From assembly GCA_020438865.1 (NCBI GenBank), contig JAGQTU010000011.1, forward strand, positions 8,599-72,598: 64,000 bases of DNA, in the 5' to 3' direction. This stretch comes from Mycobacterium sp. (GTDB lineage Bacteria; Actinomycetota; Actinomycetes; Mycobacteriales; Mycobacteriaceae). A model generated the notes under the pieces. That model was not told the DNA's origin. It worked only from the letters and a program-made list of their open reading frames with translations, and did not search any database. Positions 11,529 through 16,735 of the stretch are shown here, in pieces. Positions within the stretch are counted from its first letter, which is position 1. Each line of letters begins with the position of its first letter. The position numbers and the translations under genes were made by a program.

Positions 11529-12308
11529 TCAGGCCGCCAGCGCGCGGTGCAGGTCGGGCAGGAACGCGGCCAGGTGGTTCATCTCCTGGGCGCAGTGCAC
11601 CATCAGGTCGCGCGGATCGGGCAGTTGGCGGGCCGCGACCGGGCGGACGGCCCGGTCGGCGAGCCGGTTGCCGCCGCGGACCGCCACGTGCCGGCCACCC
11701 ATCCAGAACCGCGACCGCATCTCGCTCCCGGTGCCGGTCGGGCGGACGTGGTGGACGAACCATCCGATGTCGACCGGGACGTCCGAGGAGCCCAGCCGCG
11801 CGCACACCGCGATGCCATCACCGAGCCGGGCCGGATCGAGTCCCAGCACCGACGGCTCCACGAAGGCGATTGCGCCCCTGGTGAATCGGGAGCCGATGTA
11901 CTCCTCGATCAGCGACGTGCGCCCGACGTACCGGCCGTCGGGGCCGTCGTCGTCCCAGCGCGCCGAGACGTGCGCCCGCGGATGCCACAGCTTGTAGCGG
12001 CGCGCGTCGCTGCCGTGCCAGCCGAACCACCACGTCCACATCGCCGGGGTGACGCCGGGCATGTCGGTGCGCGCCGACACCTGGATGCCGCCGTCGCGCA
12101 GGTGACCGTAGCCGTTCTCGGTCGGCTGGTACCCGTCGTCGAGAATGCTTGCCGCGGAGTCGAAGTCGAGTAGCACGGGTTCGGCCTGGGGGCCGTGTTC
12201 GAGCGCGGTGGCGATGTGGCTGGCCAGCGGGTCCATCTCGGGGCGGAAGAACGATCCCCATTCGGTGTCGGCGTCACCAGCGCGGTAGCCGAGGTAGGTT
12301 CCGGCCAT
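11529..12308 (-). CDS. PhlG-like 2,4-diacetylphloroglucinol (C-C) hydrolase
   Basis: WWFGWH, YKLWHPRAH, IEEYIG, MRSRFW, HCAQEMNHL motifs of the DAPG hydrolase family; ATG overlaps the upstream TGA (TGATG). Confidence 0.82.
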   Translation of the reverse strand: MAGTYLGYRAGDADTEWGSFFRPEMDPLASHIATALEHGPQAEPVLLDFDSAASILDDGYQPTENGYGHLRDGGIQVSARTDMPGVTPAMWTWWFGWHGSDARRYKLWHPRAHVSARWDDDGPDGRYVGRTSLIEEYIGSRFTRGAIAFVEPSVLGLDPARLGDGIAVCARLGSSDVPVDIGWFVHHVRPTGTGSEMRSRFWMGGRHVAVRGGNRLADRAVRPVAARQLPDPRDLMVHCAQEMNHLAAFLPDLHRALAA

Positions 12309-13648
12309 CAGACCCGGCCCATCCAAGGGTAGAACCGCCCGTCTGGGTCGTAGTCGGCGCGGATCCGGTCCAACCGGGCCATGTTCGCATCGGTGACGAA
12401 CTTCGCAGGCCGGGCGCCGAGGTTCTCGTCGGCGAGTTGGATGCCACTGGCCAGCGGGGCCATGGCGGCCATGTTCGAGCGCGGCCAGTCGGCGTACATC
12501 TCGTCGTCGGCGGCGTCGCGCCAACCGCTGTAGAGCGCCAGATACGCCTCGTCCTCGAGGCTGTATGCCATGTCCTGCCGGGCCGGCGAGGGACCCCAGA
12601 CCAGCCACAGGAAGTGCGACGGATGGGGCGGCATGGTGTCGATGATCCGGTGGATGCCGGGCAGCAGCTCCTCGGCCGAGGCCGAGGTCCACATGTTGTC
12701 GGCGGTGTAGCGATGGTCCTCGAGGTAGTTGCTCATCACCGCGGTGTACCAGTCCGGCAGTCCCATCGGCACATACGGCATGGCCACCAGCGCCTTGTCG
12801 ACGATGGGACAGCGGTCCAGAATGGCGAACGCCGCCCGGGCCTCGTCCTCGGTGTCGGCGAACACCGGGGAGGCGAGCACGATGGCCGGGCGGTCGATAC
12901 CGGCGTTGGGCACGGTCTTGGAGGCGACGATCTGGACCTCGACCCGCCGGTCGACGTCGGCGGTGATCTCGCGGGCCCAGGTGTAGATCTCGTCGGCGTA
13001 CTCCATCGGGTAGGCATAGAAGCTGCTGGCCAGGATCGGCGACTTCGGATAGAGCTTGAGATGGAAGGCCGTCACCACGGCGAAGAAGCCCGGCCCCGAA
13101 CCCCTTGCCGCCCAATACAAGTCGGGGTGGTGCTCGGCGTCGATGTACAGCTCGTCACCGTCCGCGGTGACCACGTCGAGGCCAATGACGCTCTCACACG
13201 CCGGTCCGTACACCCGGCTGTTCCAGCCGTACCCGCCCTGGAGCAGGTAGCCGCCGATGCGCACGCCCTTGCAGTGGCCGGCGGGGAAGAACAGCCCGAG
13301 CGCATCGAGCTCGGCCGCCAGGACGCTGCCGCCCTTGCCGGGTCCGACCACCGCGACCTTCTTGTCGGCGTCGACGGCGGTCTGCTCCAGGCGGCTCACG
13401 TCGAGCAGCACCGCGCCGTCGCGCAGATGGTTGGCCGCCCAGCTGTGGCCGCCGGACTTGATGCTGACCTTCTTGCCGTTGGCCTTGGCGTAGCGCACGG
13501 TGGCGACCACGTCCTCGGCGTCGACCGCCTGCACGATGACGTCCGGGTAGCGGTCCGGCACCCGCTGATTCCACACCGTCGCCCGACGTGCGGGTTCATA
13601 CCCGTCATCGCCGCGGAAGAAGTGCCGCCCGTCGGGAAGTGCCGCCAT
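12308..13648 (-). CDS. FAD-linked oxidase (VAO/BBE-like FAD_binding_4 family)
   Basis: SGGHSW covalent-FAD His motif, VRIGGYLLQGGYG, WAARGSG, YDPDGRF; GGAGG RBS before ATG 13648. Confidence 0.88.
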   Translation of the reverse strand: MAALPDGRHFFRGDDGYEPARRATVWNQRVPDRYPDVIVQAVDAEDVVATVRYAKANGKKVSIKSGGHSWAANHLRDGAVLLDVSRLEQTAVDADKKVAVVGPGKGGSVLAAELDALGLFFPAGHCKGVRIGGYLLQGGYGWNSRVYGPACESVIGLDVVTADGDELYIDAEHHPDLYWAARGSGPGFFAVVTAFHLKLYPKSPILASSFYAYPMEYADEIYTWAREITADVDRRVEVQIVASKTVPNAGIDRPAIVLASPVFADTEDEARAAFAILDRCPIVDKALVAMPYVPMGLPDWYTAVMSNYLEDHRYTADNMWTSASAEELLPGIHRIIDTMPPHPSHFLWLVWGPSPARQDMAYSLEDEAYLALYSGWRDAADDEMYADWPRSNMAAMAPLASGIQLADENLGARPAKFVTDANMARLDRIRADYDPDGRFYPWMGRV

Positions 13649-13662
13649 CCCAACCTCCATGA

Positions 13663-13699
13663 TTCGCATTGCGAACTATTATGATCCGCTATACGGAAC
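13663..13699. promoter_or_regulatory. Tandem IclR/PobR-type operator half-palindromes
   Basis: TTCG-CATTG-CGAAC (13663-13676) and TCCG-CTATA-CGGAAC (13685-13699), centres 22 bp apart, between the divergent oxidase and IclR genes. Confidence 0.6.
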
Positions 13700-13737
13700 A
13701 ATAGTCCCACACCACCGCGAGGGGAAGGGGTCAGCCG

Positions 13738-14469
13738 ATGGCGCCGCGCACCGCTGCCCGCGACGACGGCATCCAGGTGCTGCGGCGGGCCGCCGCCGCG
13801 CTCGACGAGATCGCCACCGCTCCGGGCCGGCTGCGGCTGGTCGATCTGCAGGATCGGCTCGGGCTGGCCAAGTCGACGGTGCGCCGGCTGCTGGTCGGCC
13901 TCGTCGAGATCGGTTTCGCCGCGGTCGACGACGACGGCCGGATCAGCCTCGGCGGGCGGCTGCTCGGGCTGGGCAGCGCGGATGCCGCCCAGATCGCGAC
14001 CACCTTCCGGCCCACCCTGGAGCGGGTCGCCGAGCTGACCGGCGAGACCGTGGACCTGTCCATCCTGCGCGCCGGGCAGATGTGGTTCATCGACCAGATC
14101 GAGTCCGCGCATCGGCTCCGCGCGGTCTCGGCCGTCGGCGAACGCTTTCCGCTGCACGACACCGCCAACGGCAAGGCGGCGCTGGCATTGCTCGGCGCGG
14201 CCGAGGTGGACGATCTGCTGACCCACGTCGCGGCCGATCGGGCCGACATCTTGCGGGCCGAGCTGGCCGAAATTCGGGCCGGCCGCATCGCGTTCGACCG
14301 CGACGAGCACACCGCGGGGATCTCGGCCGCCGGGGTTGCGGGCCGGGCGGCCGGCGGCAACGTCGTCGCCATCTCGGTACCGGCTCCCACCGACCGTTTC
14401 GCGGCCAACGAGAAGCGCATCGTGGCCGCACTGCGCTCGGCGCTCGCCGCGCCGGCCTGGCTGGGCTGA
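13738..14469 (+). CDS. IclR-family transcriptional regulator
   Basis: N-terminal HTH LGLAKSTVRRLL; effector domain GETVDLS, TANGKAALA, EHTAGISA. Confidence 0.92.
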   Translation: MAPRTAARDDGIQVLRRAAAALDEIATAPGRLRLVDLQDRLGLAKSTVRRLLVGLVEIGFAAVDDDGRISLGGRLLGLGSADAAQIATTFRPTLERVAELTGETVDLSILRAGQMWFIDQIESAHRLRAVSAVGERFPLHDTANGKAALALLGAAEVDDLLTHVAADRADILRAELAEIRAGRIAFDRDEHTAGISAAGVAGRAAGGNVVAISVPAPTDRFAANEKRIVAALRSALAAPAWLG

Positions 14470-14512: not shown

Positions 14513-16735
14513 ATGAGCCGTACCGCGTTGCGTATCTGCCCGATCTGCGAGGCCACCTGCGGGCTGGTCCTGACCATCGACGACGCCGGGCGGGTCGACT
14601 CCGCCCGCGGCGATCGCGATGACGTGTTCAGCCACGGCTTCATCTGTCCGAAGGGCGCGAGCTTCCCCGAACTCGACAACGACCCCGACCGGCTGGACGG
14701 GCCGCTGATCCGCCGTGACGGCGAGCTGGTTGCGGTCGGCTGGGACGAGGCGTTCGCCGCGGCCGCCGAAGGACTGCGGCGCGTCATCGGCGCCGCCGGG
14801 GGATCCTCGGTGGCGGTGTACCTCGGCAACCCCAACGCGCACAACATCGCCGGGGCGCTCTACGGCCCGGCGGTCATCAAATCGCTGGGCACCCGCCAGG
14901 TCTACTCGGCCAGCACACTGGACCAGATGCCCAAGCACGTCGCCTGCGGATACCTGTACGGCAACCCGGTGGCGTTCACGATCCCCGACCTGGATCGCAC
15001 CGACTATCTGGTCATCATCGGCGGAAATCCGTTGGTGTCCAACGGAAGTCTGGCCACCGCCGCCGACTTCGGCGGCAAGCTCAAGGCGTTGCGCAAGCGC
15101 GGCGGCCGACTGGTGGTGATCGACCCGTCGCGCACCAGGACCGCCGAACTGGCCGACCGGCACATCGCGCCGCGGCCGGGTACCGACGCGGCGCTGCTGT
15201 TCGCGATCGTCCACGTGCTCTTCGACGAGGATCTCGTCGACCTCGGCCCGCTGGCCGACCACGTCACGGGCGTGGAGCGGGTCCGCGCGGCCGCCGCGGA
15301 CTTCCCGCCGGATGCCGTCGCCGAGCATGTCGGTGTCGCCGCCGACGAGATCCGCACGCTGGCGCGGGAAATCGCGGGGGCCCCCAGCGCTGCCGTGTAC
15401 GGCCGGATCGGCACCTCGACCGTCGAGTTCGGGACGCTGACCAGCTGGCTGGTCGATGTCGTCAACATCCTGACCGGCAATCTGGATCGGCCGGGTGGGG
15501 TGATGTTCGCCAGCCCGCCCATCGGCTCGGCCCCCCGCCCCGCCCGTCCGGGCCGCGGGTTCGCGACCGGCCGCTGGCGCAGCCGGGTCTCCGGTCACCC
15601 CGAGGCGCTGTCCGAGCTTCCTGCGGTGGCATTGGCCGAGGAGATCGAAACACCCGGCGACGGCCAGGTTCGCGCGGTCGTCACGATCGCCGGGAACCCG
15701 GTGTTGTCGGCGCCGGACGGGCCCCGGCTCGCCGATGCCCTCGACCGCGTCGAGTTCATGCTGTCGGTGGATCCCTACCTCAACGAGACGACGCGGCACG
15801 CCGATGTGATCCTGCCGCCGCCGCCACCCTCGCGCGCCGCGCATTTCGACGTCGCACTCAGCGGTGCGGTGGTGCGCAACAACGCCCGCTACTCGCCACC
15901 GGCGCTGCCGCTGGCCGACGGCCGTCCCGACGAGTGCGAGATCCTGGCCCGGCTGGCGCTGATCGTGCTCGGGATGGGGCCCGACGCCGACCCGAAGCTG
16001 GTCGACGACCAGGTGATCGCGACGACGCTGGGCAAGGAGGTCGGCGACCCCGACTCACCGGTGGCCGGCCGCGACGTCGCTGAGCTCACCGCGATGCTGC
16101 CCGACGGCCCGGGTTACGAACGGCGCCTGGACATGATGCTGCGGTTGGGACCGTTCGGGGACGGGTTCGGCGCCGACCCTAACGGCCTGACGCTGCAGCG
16201 GCTCAAGAACACACCGCACGGGGTCGACCTGGGGGCGCTGCAGCCCAGGATTCCGGAGGTGCTTCGAACTCCCTCGGGCACAGTCGAATTGGCGCCCGAT
16301 GTCATCCTCGACGACGTTGGAAGGCTGCATGCCTCGCTCGGTGCCGAGTCCGGCTTCCTGCTGATCGGACGACGTCACCTGCGCTCGAACAACAGCTGGA
16401 TGCACAACCTGGAGGCGCTGTCCGGCGGCACCAACCGCTGCACGCTGCAGATCCATCCCGACGACGCCGCCCGGTTGGGCGTGGAGGACGTCGCGCTGGT
16501 CACCGGGCCCGGCGGCAAGCTCGAGGTACCGGTGGAGATCACCGAGGCGATCCGGCCCGGGGTGGTGTCTCTGCCGCACGGCTGGGGCCACACCGAGTCG
16601 GGCACCCGGATGCGTGTCGCCGCACAGCATCCCGGCGTCAACGTCAACAGTCTCAACGACGGGACGCTGCTCGATCCGCTGTCGGGTACCGCGGTGCTCA
16701 ACGCGATACCGGTCCAGGTGGCCCCAGTCGGTTAG
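14513..16735 (+). CDS. Molybdopterin (bis-PGD) oxidoreductase with N-terminal 4Fe-4S (Rv0197 homologue)
   Basis: CPICEATCG...CPKG Fe-S motif; SASTLDQMPK; GRRHLRSNNSWMHN; PHGWGH; ATG lies 7 nt after CACAGT. Confidence 0.88.
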   Translation: MSRTALRICPICEATCGLVLTIDDAGRVDSARGDRDDVFSHGFICPKGASFPELDNDPDRLDGPLIRRDGELVAVGWDEAFAAAAEGLRRVIGAAGGSSVAVYLGNPNAHNIAGALYGPAVIKSLGTRQVYSASTLDQMPKHVACGYLYGNPVAFTIPDLDRTDYLVIIGGNPLVSNGSLATAADFGGKLKALRKRGGRLVVIDPSRTRTAELADRHIAPRPGTDAALLFAIVHVLFDEDLVDLGPLADHVTGVERVRAAAADFPPDAVAEHVGVAADEIRTLAREIAGAPSAAVYGRIGTSTVEFGTLTSWLVDVVNILTGNLDRPGGVMFASPPIGSAPRPARPGRGFATGRWRSRVSGHPEALSELPAVALAEEIETPGDGQVRAVVTIAGNPVLSAPDGPRLADALDRVEFMLSVDPYLNETTRHADVILPPPPPSRAAHFDVALSGAVVRNNARYSPPALPLADGRPDECEILARLALIVLGMGPDADPKLVDDQVIATTLGKEVGDPDSPVAGRDVAELTAMLPDGPGYERRLDMMLRLGPFGDGFGADPNGLTLQRLKNTPHGVDLGALQPRIPEVLRTPSGTVELAPDVILDDVGRLHASLGAESGFLLIGRRHLRSNNSWMHNLEALSGGTNRCTLQIHPDDAARLGVEDVALVTGPGGKLEVPVEITEAIRPGVVSLPHGWGHTESGTRMRVAAQHPGVNVNSLNDGTLLDPLSGTAVLNAIPVQVAPVG

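What the first reader, a model, noticed from the sequence alone, without database searches (positions are those of the whole stretch)
11529..14469. IclR-controlled FAD oxidase plus PhlG-like C-C hydrolase: candidate pathway for degrading a plant or microbial acylphenol
Seen: the oxidase and hydrolase are translationally coupled (TGATG) and divergent from an IclR gene; the unit is inserted next to ilvD. The hydrolase keeps the PhlG Zn-site pattern (WHPxxH, EEY, HxxxE). Known: PhlG cleaves the antibiotic DAPG to monoacetylphloroglucinol; VAO/BBE-type oxidases oxidise phenolic side chains; IclR/PobR regulators sense aromatics. Inference: the oxidase generates an aryl ketone or similar product that the hydrolase then cleaves, giving detoxification or catabolism of DAPG-, dihydrochalcone- or flavonoid-like compounds. 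The substrate is unknown.
Basis: partly seen in the sequence, partly recalled or inferred. Interest (0 to 1): 0.62.

Follow-up and report, generated by a model that had tools for sequence, protein, structure and literature searches.

The report
Conserved flavin oxidase plus C-C hydrolase pair
This environmental mycobacterium carries a repressor-controlled two-gene operon, a flavin oxidase coupled to a zinc carbon-carbon-bond hydrolase; it matches the uncharacterised M. tuberculosis genes Rv1773c-Rv1775, and the enzyme pair recurs across four bacterial phyla, once fused into one protein, so the two almost certainly act on one still unknown compound.

Summary
The hydrolase (11529-12308, -) matches Pfam DAPG_hydrolase at E 3e-55. 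It keeps all four PhlG zinc ligands and models onto PhlG and phloretin hydrolase at TM 0.80-0.84. The FAD oxidase (12308-13648, -) overlaps it by TGATG and faces a divergent IclR gene.

An oxidase match lies directly upstream of the hydrolase in 73 of 80 mycobacterial species loci, a few only as fragments. An oxidase orthologue is adjacent in 44 of 47 assessable non-mycobacterial metagenome loci. The two are fused into one 713-aa protein in Runella (Bacteroidota). Local regulators differ by lineage (IclR, TetR, LysR).

The triad is orthologous to M. tuberculosis Rv1773c-Rv1774-Rv1775 (63-67% identity), which is uncharacterised. A conserved double-dyad operator, unique in this genome, sits between the promoter and the oxidase start.

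The hydrolase is not a PhlG or phloretin-hydrolase orthologue. It falls in a large uncharacterised clade that differs at two positions near the active site.

Best reading: a substrate-inducible, two-step "oxidise, then retro-Claisen cleave" catabolic or detoxification module. The substrate class (acylphenol or aliphatic beta-dicarbonyl lipid) and the order of the two reactions are inferred, not shown.

The parts
11529..12308 (-). Zinc-dependent C-C hydrolase of the DAPG_hydrolase (PhlG-fold) family, 259 aa; orthologue of M. tuberculosis Rv1775. Zinc ligands H113, E136, H238, E242.
   Evidence: Pfam PF18089 at E 3.1e-55. PDB 5xe5 at E 5e-29 and 3hwp at E 1e-25. Ligand mapping. AlphaFold2 model with pLDDT 96.3, TM 0.80-0.84 to 5xe5, 5xey and 3hwp. 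63% identical to the M. tuberculosis protein.
12308..13648 (-). FAD-linked oxidase of the PCMH/BBE-like superfamily, 446 aa (an alternative upstream ATG lies at 13669); orthologue of Rv1774. Carries SGGHSW (His for the 8-alpha-histidyl link) and GHCKG (Cys at the 6-S-cysteinyl position). Its stop overlaps the hydrolase start (TGATG at 12306-12310).
   Evidence: PF01565 at E 5e-29. Best PDB match is EncM at E 3e-38, full length. The Cys aligns with the Cys of BBE-like oxidases 3rj8, 9vn8 and 8zls, while EncM has none there. Both motifs are the same in all 68 loci picked out by a GHCxG-type pattern. 67% identical to the M. tuberculosis orthologue over 446 of 446 residues.
13654..13658 (-). Shine-Dalgarno sequence GGAGG of the oxidase gene.
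   Evidence: Direct reading. A purine-rich block is conserved at this place in 61 species.
13661..13698 (-). Double-dyad operator between the -10 element and the Shine-Dalgarno sequence: dyad 1 TTCCG-N5-CGGAT (13684-13698) and dyad 2 TTCG-N-CGAA core (13661-13676), centres 22 bp apart. Presumed IclR binding site.
   Evidence: Phylogenetic footprint in 61 IclR-oxidase intergenic regions, consensus aTCCG-N5-CGgAT N7 aTyCG-N5-CGaAT. Coordinates. The only match in the 4.96-Mb genome at up to 2 mismatches, with none for the reversed control pattern. Also present in the M. tuberculosis locus.
13698..13703 (-). -10-like hexamer TATTGT (TANNNT) of the oxidase-hydrolase promoter. In most species the same palindromic box (CACTATATTG) also serves the divergent, often leaderless IclR gene.
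   Evidence: Conserved columns in 61 species. Inference only: the generic sigma-70 scan found no promoter-like site here.
13738..14469 (+). IclR-family transcriptional regulator, 243 aa, divergent from the operon; orthologue of Rv1773c.
   Evidence: HTH_IclR at E 6.6e-12 and IclR_C at E 2.8e-35. Divergent orthologue present in 57 of the 73 mycobacterial loci with an upstream oxidase match. 65% identical to the M. tuberculosis regulator.

Best explanation
This is a small, self-contained, substrate-inducible catabolic or detoxification module.

**Regulation (inferred).** The IclR protein represses the oxidase-hydrolase operon by binding the two dyads that lie between the -10 element and the ribosome-binding site. 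The substrate or a product relieves repression.

**Chemistry (inferred).** The two cytoplasmic enzymes then act one after the other on a single small, probably hydrophobic molecule.
1. The bicovalent-FAD oxidase uses O2 to create or unmask a carbonyl. This could be a secondary (benzylic or beta-hydroxy) alcohol oxidised to a ketone, or a beta-dicarbonyl oxygenated as EncM does.
2. The product is an ortho-hydroxyaryl ketone or a beta-di/tri-ketone.
3. The zinc hydrolase cleaves the C-C bond next to that carbonyl by a retro-Claisen (retro-Friedel-Crafts) hydrolysis, as PhlG does. This releases a carboxylic acid and a phenol or ketone.

**What is shown:** the family, fold and metal site of the hydrolase; the flavin-attachment residues of the oxidase; translational coupling; cross-phylum co-occurrence and fusion; the conserved operator.

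**What is inferred:** repression by IclR, the order of the two reactions, and the substrate class.
For: **The genes work together**
- An oxidase match lies directly upstream of the hydrolase in 73 of 80 mycobacterial species loci (a few are only fragments); 7 assessable loci lack it.
- 19 of 20 genus genomes with the hydrolase have the oxidase next to it.
- An oxidase orthologue (42-51% identical) is adjacent in 44 of 47 assessable non-mycobacterial metagenome loci, mostly in the opposite gene order. It is adjacent in 23 of 27 mycobacterium-like metagenome loci.
- The pair stands beside TetR in a Pseudomonadota MAG, beside LysR in Myxococcales, and beside TetR in another genome.
- A 713-aa fusion exists in Runella zeae and Runella sp.: hydrolase domain 46% and oxidase domain 48% identical to the window proteins, with 13 full-length members in its 15-member cluster. 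A second fusion of 717 aa occurs in low-GC metagenome loci.
- Flanking genes differ everywhere, so the pair itself is the conserved unit.

**Hydrolase chemistry**
- Profile, fold and all four zinc ligands are present.
- H113 and H238 are invariant, and E136 and E242 at least 90% conserved, among 50 diverse homologues.

**Oxidase**
- The His and Cys flavin-attachment positions are present in every locus the motif scan picked out. A bicovalent link is typical of true O2-using oxidases of alcohols (established knowledge of the BBE-like family).

**Catabolic role with an acid product**
- In proteobacterial loci the pair is flanked by a FadL/TodX channel, SDR, 3-hydroxyacyl-CoA dehydrogenase, BKACE, AMP-dependent ligase, enoyl-CoA hydratase and an MFS transporter.

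**A redox step before the hydrolase is a family theme**
- An independent fusion joins an FAD_binding_2 flavoenzyme to a DAPG_hydrolase domain (P0253).
- The known gut pathway makes phloretin with a flavin reductase before Phy cleaves it (established knowledge).

**Regulation**
- The operator footprint is conserved in 61 species and is unique in this genome.
Against: - No enzyme of this hydrolase clade, and no close relative of this oxidase, has been assayed. The literature searches found no characterised pair.
- The order of reaction is not constrained by gene order (both orders occur) or by the fusion.
- The hydrolase occurs without the oxidase in 7 mycobacterial loci (some beside a TetR gene) and in more distant relatives.
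- An oxidase paralogue at 62% identity occurs without a hydrolase. Each enzyme can therefore work alone.
- The Tyr-to-Phe and Asp-to-Cys changes near the active site mean that PhlG chemistry may not transfer exactly.
- The effector of IclR is unknown, and binding to the dyads is untested.
Confidence: 0.6

Rival explanations
1. The module degrades or detoxifies an aromatic acylphloroglucinol-type compound (DAPG, phloretin, other dihydrochalcones or flavonoid fragments). The oxidase makes the aryl ketone from a benzylic alcohol.
For: - The only characterised family members, PhlG and the phloretin hydrolases, act on acylphloroglucinols, and fold and metal site are shared.
- PMC8562490 states that the Rv1775 model keeps the phloroglucinol-recognition residues but lacks those needed for phloretin.
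- Host organisms are soil, water and plant-associated bacteria (Mycolicibacterium, Runella zeae, Myxococcales).
Against: - NCBIfam PhlG equivalog score is 88 against a cut-off of 600.
- Identity to both characterised enzymes is 27-31%.
- The protein falls in a separate Phe/Cys clade, while PhlG and the M. abscessus enzyme share Tyr/Asp.
- No phloroglucinol-degrading genes lie nearby.
- Proteobacterial contexts with FadL/TodX, acyl-CoA ligase and beta-oxidation genes suggest a lipid-like acyl chain.
Confidence: 0.3
2. An aliphatic beta-dicarbonyl route. The oxidase converts a 1,3-diol or beta-hydroxyketone into a beta-diketone, or oxygenates a beta-diketone as EncM does, and the hydrolase splits it. 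This is the logic of polyvinyl-alcohol degradation by a secondary-alcohol oxidase plus a beta-diketone hydrolase. Candidate substrates are lipid beta-diketones such as plant wax diketones, triketones or polyketide lipids.
For: - The best structural relative of the oxidase by sequence is EncM, which acts on a 1,3-diketone.
- Hydrophobic-compound uptake and beta-oxidation genes lie beside the pair in proteobacteria.
- The Tyr that PhlG and the phloretin hydrolase share is lost in this clade.
- Mycobacteria are specialists in lipids (general knowledge).
Against: - No DAPG_hydrolase-family enzyme is known to cleave an aliphatic diketone.
- EncM lacks the Cys link that this oxidase has, and identity to EncM is only about 30%.
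- The context evidence comes from a few related proteobacterial lineages (7-9 loci).
Confidence: 0.25
3. Reverse order. The hydrolase first releases a phenol or alcohol from an acylated compound, and the oxidase then oxidises that product, for example an alcohol to an aldehyde or a hydroquinone to a quinone.
For: - In most non-mycobacterial loci the hydrolase gene comes first (43 of 44 adjacent cases), and the hydrolase domain is N-terminal in the fusion.
- The hydrolase can occur alone.
Against: - Gene and domain order rarely reflect reaction order, and mycobacteria have the opposite order.
- Known family members need a pre-existing ketone, which an oxidase can supply.
- BBE-like oxidases are not known to oxidise simple phenols (established knowledge).
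Confidence: 0.15
4. A cytokinin-type oxidase with a ligand-binding partner. Rv1774 resembles plant cytokinin oxidase. The Bet v 1-like partner could bind an adenine-type hormone, parallel to the Rv3719 (oxidase) and Rv3718c (cytokinin-binding protein) pair.
For: - PMC11925245 lists Rv1774 among M. tuberculosis proteins similar to maize CKX, and shows that Rv3718c, next to the CKX-like Rv3719, binds a cytokinin.
- Beyond PhlG, the hydrolase model hits Bet v 1/PYL/cytokinin-binding folds at TM 0.3-0.4.
Against: - The partner keeps a complete, conserved catalytic zinc site, so it is an enzyme rather than a mere binder.
- Cytokinin dehydrogenase is a far weaker PDB match (E 2.5e-09) than EncM or BBE-like oxidases.
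- CKX chemistry needs no hydrolase.
Confidence: 0.04
5. Biosynthetic tailoring. The pair modifies an endogenous polyketide or phenolic lipid rather than degrading an external compound.
For: - Many BBE-like and EncM-like enzymes, and PhlG itself, belong to secondary-metabolite pathways (nearest NCBIfam models are the bagremycin/ferroverdin oxygenases).
- Mycobacteria make type III polyketide lipids (general knowledge).
Against: - No PKS, NRPS or other biosynthetic genes lie beside the pair in any of the roughly 170 loci examined, and flanks vary freely.
- A dedicated one-component repressor with a unique operator is typical of inducible catabolism or detoxification.
- The pair is present in phyla with very different secondary metabolism.
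Confidence: 0.06

Closest known systems
M. tuberculosis Rv1773c (IclR) - Rv1774 (FAD oxidoreductase) - Rv1775 (conserved hypothetical; predicted PhlG-like C-C hydrolase in PMC8562490)
   Same: Orthologous triad with the same architecture: divergent IclR, a 446-aa oxidase, and an overlapping hydrolase start. Identities are 65%, 67% and 63%. The double-dyad operator is also present.
   Different: - The genomic position differs: beside Rv1771 and cyp144 in M. tuberculosis, beside ilvD here.
- The M. tuberculosis-complex hydrolase has Tyr at the third zinc-ligand position, whereas this protein and 236 other mycobacterial orthologues have His.
- None of the three has been characterised. The published note on Rv1775 did not link it to Rv1774 (one search shows no mention of Rv1774 in that paper).
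PhlG, 2,4-diacetylphloroglucinol hydrolase of Pseudomonas fluorescens (PDB 3hwp)
   Same: Same Pfam family and same fold (TM 0.80). Same four zinc ligands, and the Tyr121 and His214 equivalents are conserved (Y105, H186).
   Different: - 27% identity; fails the NCBIfam equivalog model (88 against 600 bits).
- Phe for Tyr229 and Cys for the Asp after the third ligand.
- Not in a phl biosynthetic cluster.
- Partnered with an oxidase, which PhlG is not.
Phloretin hydrolases (M. abscessus, PDB 5xe5/5xey; Phy of Eubacterium ramulus; Pantoea agglomerans enzyme)
   Same: Best solved-structure match (E 5e-29, TM 0.81-0.84). Zinc C-C hydrolysis of an ortho-hydroxyaryl ketone. In gut bacteria it works after a flavin-dependent redox enzyme (pathway from established knowledge).
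   Different: - About 30% identity, and a different clade in the family tree.
- M. abscessus-type genes sit beside a MarR gene without an oxidase.
- PMC8562490 reports that the phloretin-specific residues are absent from Rv1775.
EncM and BBE-like bicovalent flavoprotein oxidases (GOOX, carbohydrate oxidase 3rj8, AknOx, 6-hydroxy-D-nicotine oxidase)
   Same: FAD_binding_4 fold aligned over the full length. The covalent His is conserved, and a Cys sits at the second attachment site as in BBE-like oxidases.
   Different: - About 30% identity to the nearest (EncM).
- No significant Pfam BBE C-terminal domain.
- EncM itself lacks the Cys link.
- Substrate unknown.
Two-enzyme 'oxidise, then cleave C-C' systems: secondary-alcohol oxidase plus beta-diketone hydrolase of polyvinyl-alcohol degraders; FAD C-glycoside 3-oxidase CarA plus C-C lyase CarBC
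   Same: The same proposed logic: an O2-dependent flavin oxidase installs a carbonyl that activates a neighbouring C-C bond for a second, non-redox enzyme. This rests on established knowledge; CarA/CarBC is cited in PMC11407993's reference list as PMC8501837 and PMC8563793.
   Different: The protein families are unrelated: GMC or PQQ oxidases, serine-hydrolase or sugar-isomerase-like cleaving enzymes. The resemblance is functional only and is untested here.

Membership tests
Pfam DAPG_hydrolase (PF18089), PhlG-fold zinc C-C hydrolases | Profile match above the curated threshold | tested here: met
   187.6 bits against 22.7, E 3.1e-55, covering profile positions 3-222 of 223.
Pfam DAPG_hydrolase (PF18089), PhlG-fold zinc C-C hydrolases | PhlG-type fold (Bet v 1-like core with N-terminal helical part) | tested here: met
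   AlphaFold2 model with pLDDT 96.3 and pTM 0.92. Foldseek TM 0.78-0.84 to 5xe5, 5xey and 3hwp at E about 1e-19 to 1e-21; the next hits are generic Bet v 1 folds at TM about 0.4 or below.
Pfam DAPG_hydrolase (PF18089), PhlG-fold zinc C-C hydrolases | Four zinc ligands His-Glu-His-Glu | tested here: met
   H113, E136, H238 and E242 align with 3hwp chain residues 137, 168, 278 and 282, which correspond to PhlG His129, Glu160, His270 and Glu274. H113 and H238 are invariant, and E136 and E242 at least 90% conserved, in 50 homologues.
Pfam DAPG_hydrolase (PF18089), PhlG-fold zinc C-C hydrolases | Zinc-dependent C-C bond hydrolysis activity | not testable with these tools
   Needs an enzyme assay.
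PhlG proper (2,4-diacetylphloroglucinol hydrolase, NCBIfam NF047887 equivalog) | Score above the equivalog cut-off | tested here: not met
   88.3 bits against a cut-off of 600.
PhlG proper (2,4-diacetylphloroglucinol hydrolase, NCBIfam NF047887 equivalog) | Active-site-proximal residues shared by the characterised acylphloroglucinol hydrolases (Tyr229 equivalent; Asp after the third ligand) | tested here: not met
   The window protein has F201 and C239, where PhlG and the M. abscessus enzyme have Tyr and Asp. In the family tree the characterised enzymes sit in a basal Tyr/Asp clade. The role of Tyr229 is from my memory of He et al. 2010.
PhlG proper (2,4-diacetylphloroglucinol hydrolase, NCBIfam NF047887 equivalog) | Location in a phl (DAPG biosynthesis) gene cluster | tested here: not met
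   The neighbours are ilvD, the oxidase, IclR and a molybdopterin oxidoreductase.
BBE-like / PCMH-VAO superfamily FAD-linked oxidases | FAD_binding_4 (PCMH-type) domain | tested here: met
   PF01565 at 101.2 bits against 26.4. Full-length alignment to EncM at E 3e-38.
BBE-like / PCMH-VAO superfamily FAD-linked oxidases | His for the 8-alpha-N1-histidyl FAD link | tested here: met
   SGGHSW aligns with the GGGHS of EncM. The motif recurs in all the loci picked out by the motif scan.
BBE-like / PCMH-VAO superfamily FAD-linked oxidases | Cys for the 6-S-cysteinyl link (bicovalent subgroup) | tested here: met
   The Cys of GHCKG aligns with the Cys of 3rj8 (carbohydrate oxidase), 9vn8 and 8zls, while EncM has Val/Ser there. 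All 68 loci picked out by the scan read GHC[KRQ]G. That this Cys carries the flavin in those enzymes is established knowledge; covalent attachment here is untested.
BBE-like / PCMH-VAO superfamily FAD-linked oxidases | C-terminal BBE domain (PF08031) | tested here: not met
   No significant PF08031 hit in the window protein. There is only a faint hit in one partner orthologue.
IclR-family local repressors | N-terminal IclR helix-turn-helix domain plus C-terminal effector domain | tested here: met
   PF09339 at E 6.6e-12 and PF01614 at E 2.8e-35.
IclR-family local repressors | Palindromic operator in the promoter of the divergent target operon | tested here: met
   Two 15-bp dyads 22 bp apart are conserved in 61 species and are unique in this genome. 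Actual binding is not testable here.

The most novel reading that the evidence does not exclude
The oxidase-coupled hydrolases form a distinct and widespread clade of the DAPG_hydrolase family. It is marked by Phe and Cys at two positions near the active site, and its natural substrates may not be acylphloroglucinols at all. Together with its dedicated bicovalent flavin oxidase it would define a new two-step route, oxidation followed by retro-Claisen hydrolysis, for a class of hydrophobic beta-dicarbonyl or hydroxyaryl-ketone lipids from the environment. The route is retained from Bacteroidota to mycobacteria. It appears to be decaying specifically in the M. tuberculosis complex, where a zinc ligand is replaced. 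If so, it would give Rv1773c-Rv1775 their first function.
Probability: 0.3. Interest if true: 0.7.

Novelty: new variant of a known kind. Interest (0 to 1): 0.55.

Why it matters
- Zinc C-C hydrolases of the PhlG type are a small family: 922 clusters at 50% identity among 1.84 billion representative proteins. Only two activities are known for them. This work shows that the window's enzyme and most of its nearest relatives in the family belong to an unstudied clade.
- A sub-clade of that group is locked to one particular flavin oxidase across at least four phyla, and is even fused to it. That turns three 'conserved hypothetical' M. tuberculosis genes, Rv1773c to Rv1775, into a testable two-enzyme pathway with a defined regulator and operator.
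- The natural Runella fusion is a convenient single protein for substrate discovery.
- If the substrate proves to be a plant or microbial antimicrobial, the module is a resistance or nutrient-acquisition trait of soil and plant-associated bacteria.
- If the substrate is a lipid beta-diketone, this would be new C-C cleavage biochemistry of use in biocatalysis.

Tried and rejected
- **Loci from the fetch from genomes** could not be read in the Python box. Adjacency was obtained instead by comparing genome search coordinates and from the search for related loci sets.
- **The genome-contig scan and the first protein search** returned only mycobacteria, so they could not test conservation beyond the genus. 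The representative search, the exact-contig look-ups and a metagenome scan seeded with non-mycobacterial members solved this.
- **Three look-ups of more distant representatives** (P0145, P0160, P0193) hit short or eukaryote-like contigs and gave no context.
- **The plasmid search** found the pair on a M. riyadhense plasmid. Otherwise it found only lone hydrolases (Sulfitobacter beside TetR) and the known Pantoea enzyme, with no informative catabolic plasmid context.
- **The primary papers on PhlG and on the M. abscessus enzyme** are not held. Residue roles beyond the zinc ligands therefore rest on memory and on PMC8562490.
- **Literature searches for a characterised oxidase plus PhlG-like pair** found nothing.
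- **The generic promoter scan** found no sigma-70 consensus site, as expected for a mycobacterium.
- **Rejected readings:** a chance neighbourhood kept only by descent (refuted by both gene orders, different regulators, different flanks and the fusions); recent horizontal insertion next to ilvD (flat G+C, shared position in many species); the molybdopterin oxidoreductase as part of the module (present after IclR in only about 17 of 80 loci).

Full report
**What is there.** The window comes from a high-G+C mycobacterium of the fast-growing (Mycolicibacterium) type; its closest relatives are environmental MAGs and Mycolicibacterium species.

The finding spans three genes, listed here from ilvD outwards.

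| Gene | Coordinates | Size | Main evidence |
|---|---|---|---|
| Hydrolase | 11529-12308 (-) | 259 aa | Pfam DAPG_hydrolase, E 3.1e-55 |
| FAD-linked oxidase | 12308-13669 (-) | 453 aa as listed | FAD_binding_4, E 5e-29 |
| IclR regulator | 13738-14469 (+) | 243 aa | HTH_IclR and IclR_C domains |

- The oxidase stop and the hydrolase start share one base, giving TGATG at 12306-12310.
- The oxidase most likely starts at 13648. A GGAGG lies 5 nt upstream of that ATG, and the M. tuberculosis orthologue aligns from there, 446 against 446 residues.
- ilvD ends 6 nt from the hydrolase stop.
- A molybdopterin oxidoreductase follows IclR.
- G+C content is flat across the region.

**The hydrolase.**
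- The best solved relatives are the M. abscessus phloretin hydrolase (5xe5/5xey, E 5e-29) and PhlG (3hwp, E 1e-25).
- In the printed alignment, window residues H113, E136, H238 and E242 fall on 3hwp chain positions 137, 168, 278 and 282. With the 8-residue tag these are PhlG His129, Glu160, His270 and Glu274, the zinc ligands as I recall them from He et al. 2010. All four landing on His/Glu/His/Glu with one uniform offset supports the mapping.
- H113 and H238 are invariant, and E136 and E242 at least 90% conserved, in an alignment of 50 diverse homologues.
- An AlphaFold2 model (pLDDT 96.3) superposes on 5xe5, 5xey and 3hwp with TM 0.78-0.84. All further hits are generic Bet v 1-like folds.
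- Membership in the family is secure, but orthology to PhlG is not. The NCBIfam PhlG equivalog scores 88 bits against a cut-off of 600.
- In a tree of 89 family members, PhlG and the phloretin hydrolase lie in a basal clade. That clade has Tyr at the PhlG-Tyr229 position and Asp after the third ligand. The window protein lies in a large clade with Phe and Cys at these positions (F201, C239). No member of that clade has been characterised.

**The oxidase.**
- It aligns over its full length with EncM (E 3e-38, about 30% identity). More weakly it aligns with 6-hydroxy-D-nicotine oxidase and many BBE-like oxidases.
- It carries the His of the 8-alpha-histidyl link (SGGHSW).
- Unlike EncM, it also has a Cys (GHCKG) that aligns with the Cys of bicovalent BBE-like oxidases such as 3rj8.
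- Every one of the 68 loci picked out by a GHCxG-type pattern reads GHC[KRQ]G and SGGHS[WF].
- A bicovalent flavin points to a true oxidase of high redox potential (established knowledge of the family).

- *Within the genus:* 20 genomes have a hydrolase orthologue and 19 of them have the oxidase immediately beside it.
- *Across 80 mycobacterial species loci:* an oxidase match lies directly upstream in 73. A few of these are fragments: one a remnant left by a deletion in M. pyrenivorans, others cut off by a contig end. It is absent in 7 assessable loci. A divergent IclR orthologue accompanies 57.
- *Different surroundings:* several species carry the pair elsewhere in the genome (for example L039, L044-L046, L051).
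- *Beyond the genus:* the DAPG_hydrolase family is rare in Actinomycetes, in 9 of 401 genomes and 3 of 174 genera. The nearest non-mycobacterial relatives nevertheless keep the partner:
  - a Pseudomonadota MAG (TetR, then hydrolase-oxidase with overlapping genes);
  - Myxococcales (LysR, then oxidase-hydrolase);
  - a further genome (TetR, hydrolase, oxidase).
- *Metagenome scan seeded with non-mycobacterial members:* 44 of 47 assessable loci of the non-mycobacterial clade have an oxidase 42-51% identical to the window's directly adjacent, and 43 of these have it downstream. Among mycobacterium-like loci the figure is 23 of 27.
- *Fusion:* the seventh-best hit in a library of 1.84 billion representatives is a 713-aa protein of Runella zeae and Runella sp. 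(Bacteroidota).
  - Its N-terminal half is 46% identical to the hydrolase and its C-terminal half 48% identical to the oxidase.
  - Its 15-member cluster holds 13 full-length sequences, from several assemblies and sources.
  - A similar 717-aa fusion occurs in low-GC metagenome contigs.

Both gene orders, three regulator families, unrelated flanks and a fusion leave little room for anything but a functional coupling.

**Link to M. tuberculosis.** A published structure-based re-annotation called Rv1775 a PhlG-like C-C hydrolase (PMC8562490).
- A 616-member cluster of M. tuberculosis and M. canettii 'DAPG hydrolase family' proteins, 272 aa long, is 63% identical to the window protein.
- Its locus reads:
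  - ALO-type FAD oxidase, 428 aa;
  - IclR, 231 aa, on the opposite strand;
  - FAD_binding_4 oxidase, 446 aa;
  - DAPG_hydrolase, 272 aa;
  - TetR;
  - P450.
- From my knowledge of the H37Rv map this is Rv1771, Rv1773c, Rv1774, Rv1775, Rv1776c and Rv1777.
- The regulator is 65% identical to the window's and the oxidase 67%.
- The window triad is therefore the orthologue of Rv1773c-Rv1774-Rv1775.
- Those genes are uncharacterised. The literature held here mentions them only in lists:
  - Rv1774 as a CKX-like paralogue (PMC11925245);
  - the Rv1773c-Rv1774 intergenic region as a transposon-sequencing hit related to isoniazid (PMC8613195).

**Regulation.** I aligned the IclR-oxidase intergenic regions of 61 species. 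They show a strong footprint with three elements:
- a TANNNT -10 box (CACTATATTG);
- two 15-bp dyads, aTCCG-N5-CGgAT and aTyCG-N5-CGaAT, with centres 22 bp apart (two helical turns);
- the Shine-Dalgarno sequence.

In the window the dyads lie at 13684-13698 and 13661-13676. The double dyad occurs only once in the 4.96-Mb genome even with two mismatches allowed, and the reversed control pattern gives no hit. It is also recognisable in the M. tuberculosis locus. Two dyads on one face of the DNA, downstream of the -10 element, fit repression by an IclR tetramer. This is an inference: binding and the effector are untested.

**What does the pair do?** The substrate cannot be read from sequence. Four points bear on it.
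1. The family's known chemistry is zinc-assisted hydrolysis of the C-C bond next to a ketone that is conjugated with an enol or phenol. The hydrolase therefore needs a carbonyl.
2. The partner is an O2-dependent flavin oxidase of a type that makes carbonyls from alcohols or, as in EncM, oxygenates 1,3-diketones.
3. Redox enzymes recur with this hydrolase family. An independent fusion joins an FAD_binding_2 flavoenzyme to a DAPG_hydrolase domain (P0253). In the gut flavonoid pathway a flavin reductase makes the dihydrochalcone that Phy then cleaves (established knowledge).
4. In one proteobacterial lineage the pair sits among catabolic genes:
   - a FadL/TodX outer-membrane channel;
   - an SDR;
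   - a 3-hydroxyacyl-CoA dehydrogenase;
   - a beta-keto-acid cleavage enzyme;
   - an AMP-dependent ligase;
   - an enoyl-CoA hydratase;
   - or, in related loci, a GST-like protein, an AMP ligase and an MFS transporter.

   This fits a hydrophobic substrate whose cleavage releases a carboxylic acid that is then activated to a CoA ester.

I therefore favour 'oxidase first, hydrolase second' acting on a hydrophobic hydroxy compound that becomes an aryl ketone or beta-diketone. The role would be catabolism or detoxification of an external compound.

My confidence by level:
- about 0.85-0.9 that the two enzymes act in one pathway;
- about 0.6 for the overall module reading;
- lower for any particular substrate class.

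The clade signature and the failed equivalog test weaken them.

**Limits.**
- The primary structural papers are not held.
- Either gene can occur without the other, so the enzymes are separable and the coupling is not absolute.

**Earlier notes of this scan.** Other readers had flagged BBE-type oxidase plus PhlG-like gene pairs in other genomes, and a fused protein. I treated these as leads and checked conservation and the fusion independently with my own searches.

**Verdict.** The feature is real and correctly described. It is a new, oxidase-coupled variant within a known hydrolase family and is orthologous to an unstudied M. tuberculosis locus. The proposed mechanism is plausible and readily testable, but the substrate is unknown. 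Interest is moderate to good.

Noticed in passing
L121:6001-6819 (M. tuberculosis-complex contig); protein ids P0421, P0424: The M. tuberculosis-complex orthologue of the hydrolase (Rv1775) has Tyr (…LLVYCAQEMNH…) at the third zinc-ligand position. M. canettii and all 236 other mycobacterial orthologues checked have His there. This suggests altered or lost activity specifically in the tubercle bacillus lineage, and it is at odds with the published statement that the zinc ligands are conserved.
   Followed up: partly
proteins P0253 (825 aa) and P0188 (561 aa): There are further natural fusions of the DAPG_hydrolase domain. One joins an FAD_binding_2/succinate-dehydrogenase-type flavoprotein N-terminus (P0253). 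The other joins a metallo-beta-lactamase-fold domain (P0188).
   Followed up: partly
L136:927-10612, L139, L126:2742-10816 (metagenome contigs): In one proteobacterial lineage the pair is embedded among SDR, 3-hydroxyacyl-CoA dehydrogenase, BKACE, a FadL/TodX channel, AMP-dependent ligase and enoyl-CoA hydratase genes. In related loci the neighbours are a GST-like protein, an AMP ligase and an MFS transporter. Four loci (L136, L139, L156, L157) have two tandem hydrolase paralogues before the oxidase.
   Followed up: partly
window 13698-13740 and the 61 aligned intergenic regions: In many species the IclR gene appears leaderless: TATAGT lies 6 nt before its ATG. Its -10 box is the reverse complement of the oxidase -10 box (CACTATATTG), so the two divergent promoters share one short palindrome. 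In this window the IclR gene instead has a leader of about 40 nt with a purine-rich ribosome-binding site.
   Followed up: partly
L060:5582-5998 (Mycolicibacterium pyrenivorans): The IclR gene and most of the oxidase gene are deleted here. A 3' oxidase remnant remains in front of an intact hydrolase gene. In M. kyogaense-type loci (L084, L095, L096) the hydrolase stands alone in a different context; in L084, the one read in detail, a TetR gene lies directly upstream.
   Followed up: partly
window 14513-16735 (+): A molybdopterin oxidoreductase (Rv0197-like; Fe4S4, Molybdopterin and Molydop_binding domains) starts 43 nt after the IclR stop on the same strand and may be co-transcribed with it. 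The arrangement is shared by only about 17 of the 80 species loci, so it is not part of the conserved module.
   Followed up: partly
L031:8850-10094 and L032:8968-9828 (genome G055, another family of the order): One genome carries two lone family members. One has a twin-arginine-type signal peptide, lies next to a TetR gene and has the Phe/Cys signature. The other is of the M. abscessus phloretin-hydrolase type and lies next to a MarR gene.
   Followed up: no
G007:C143:26960-28288, G016:C14:28091-29404, G019:C22:6301-7641, G029:C3:84362-85693, G008:C27:475111-476439: An oxidase paralogue or orthologue group about 62% identical to the window oxidase occurs in genus genomes without any adjacent DAPG-type hydrolase. 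Its context was not examined.
   Followed up: no
L034, L064, L078, L093, L202 (oxidase gene): In several MAG or draft loci the oxidase matches in two overlapping pieces, in different frames. These may be frameshifts from assembly errors or early pseudogenes.
   Followed up: no
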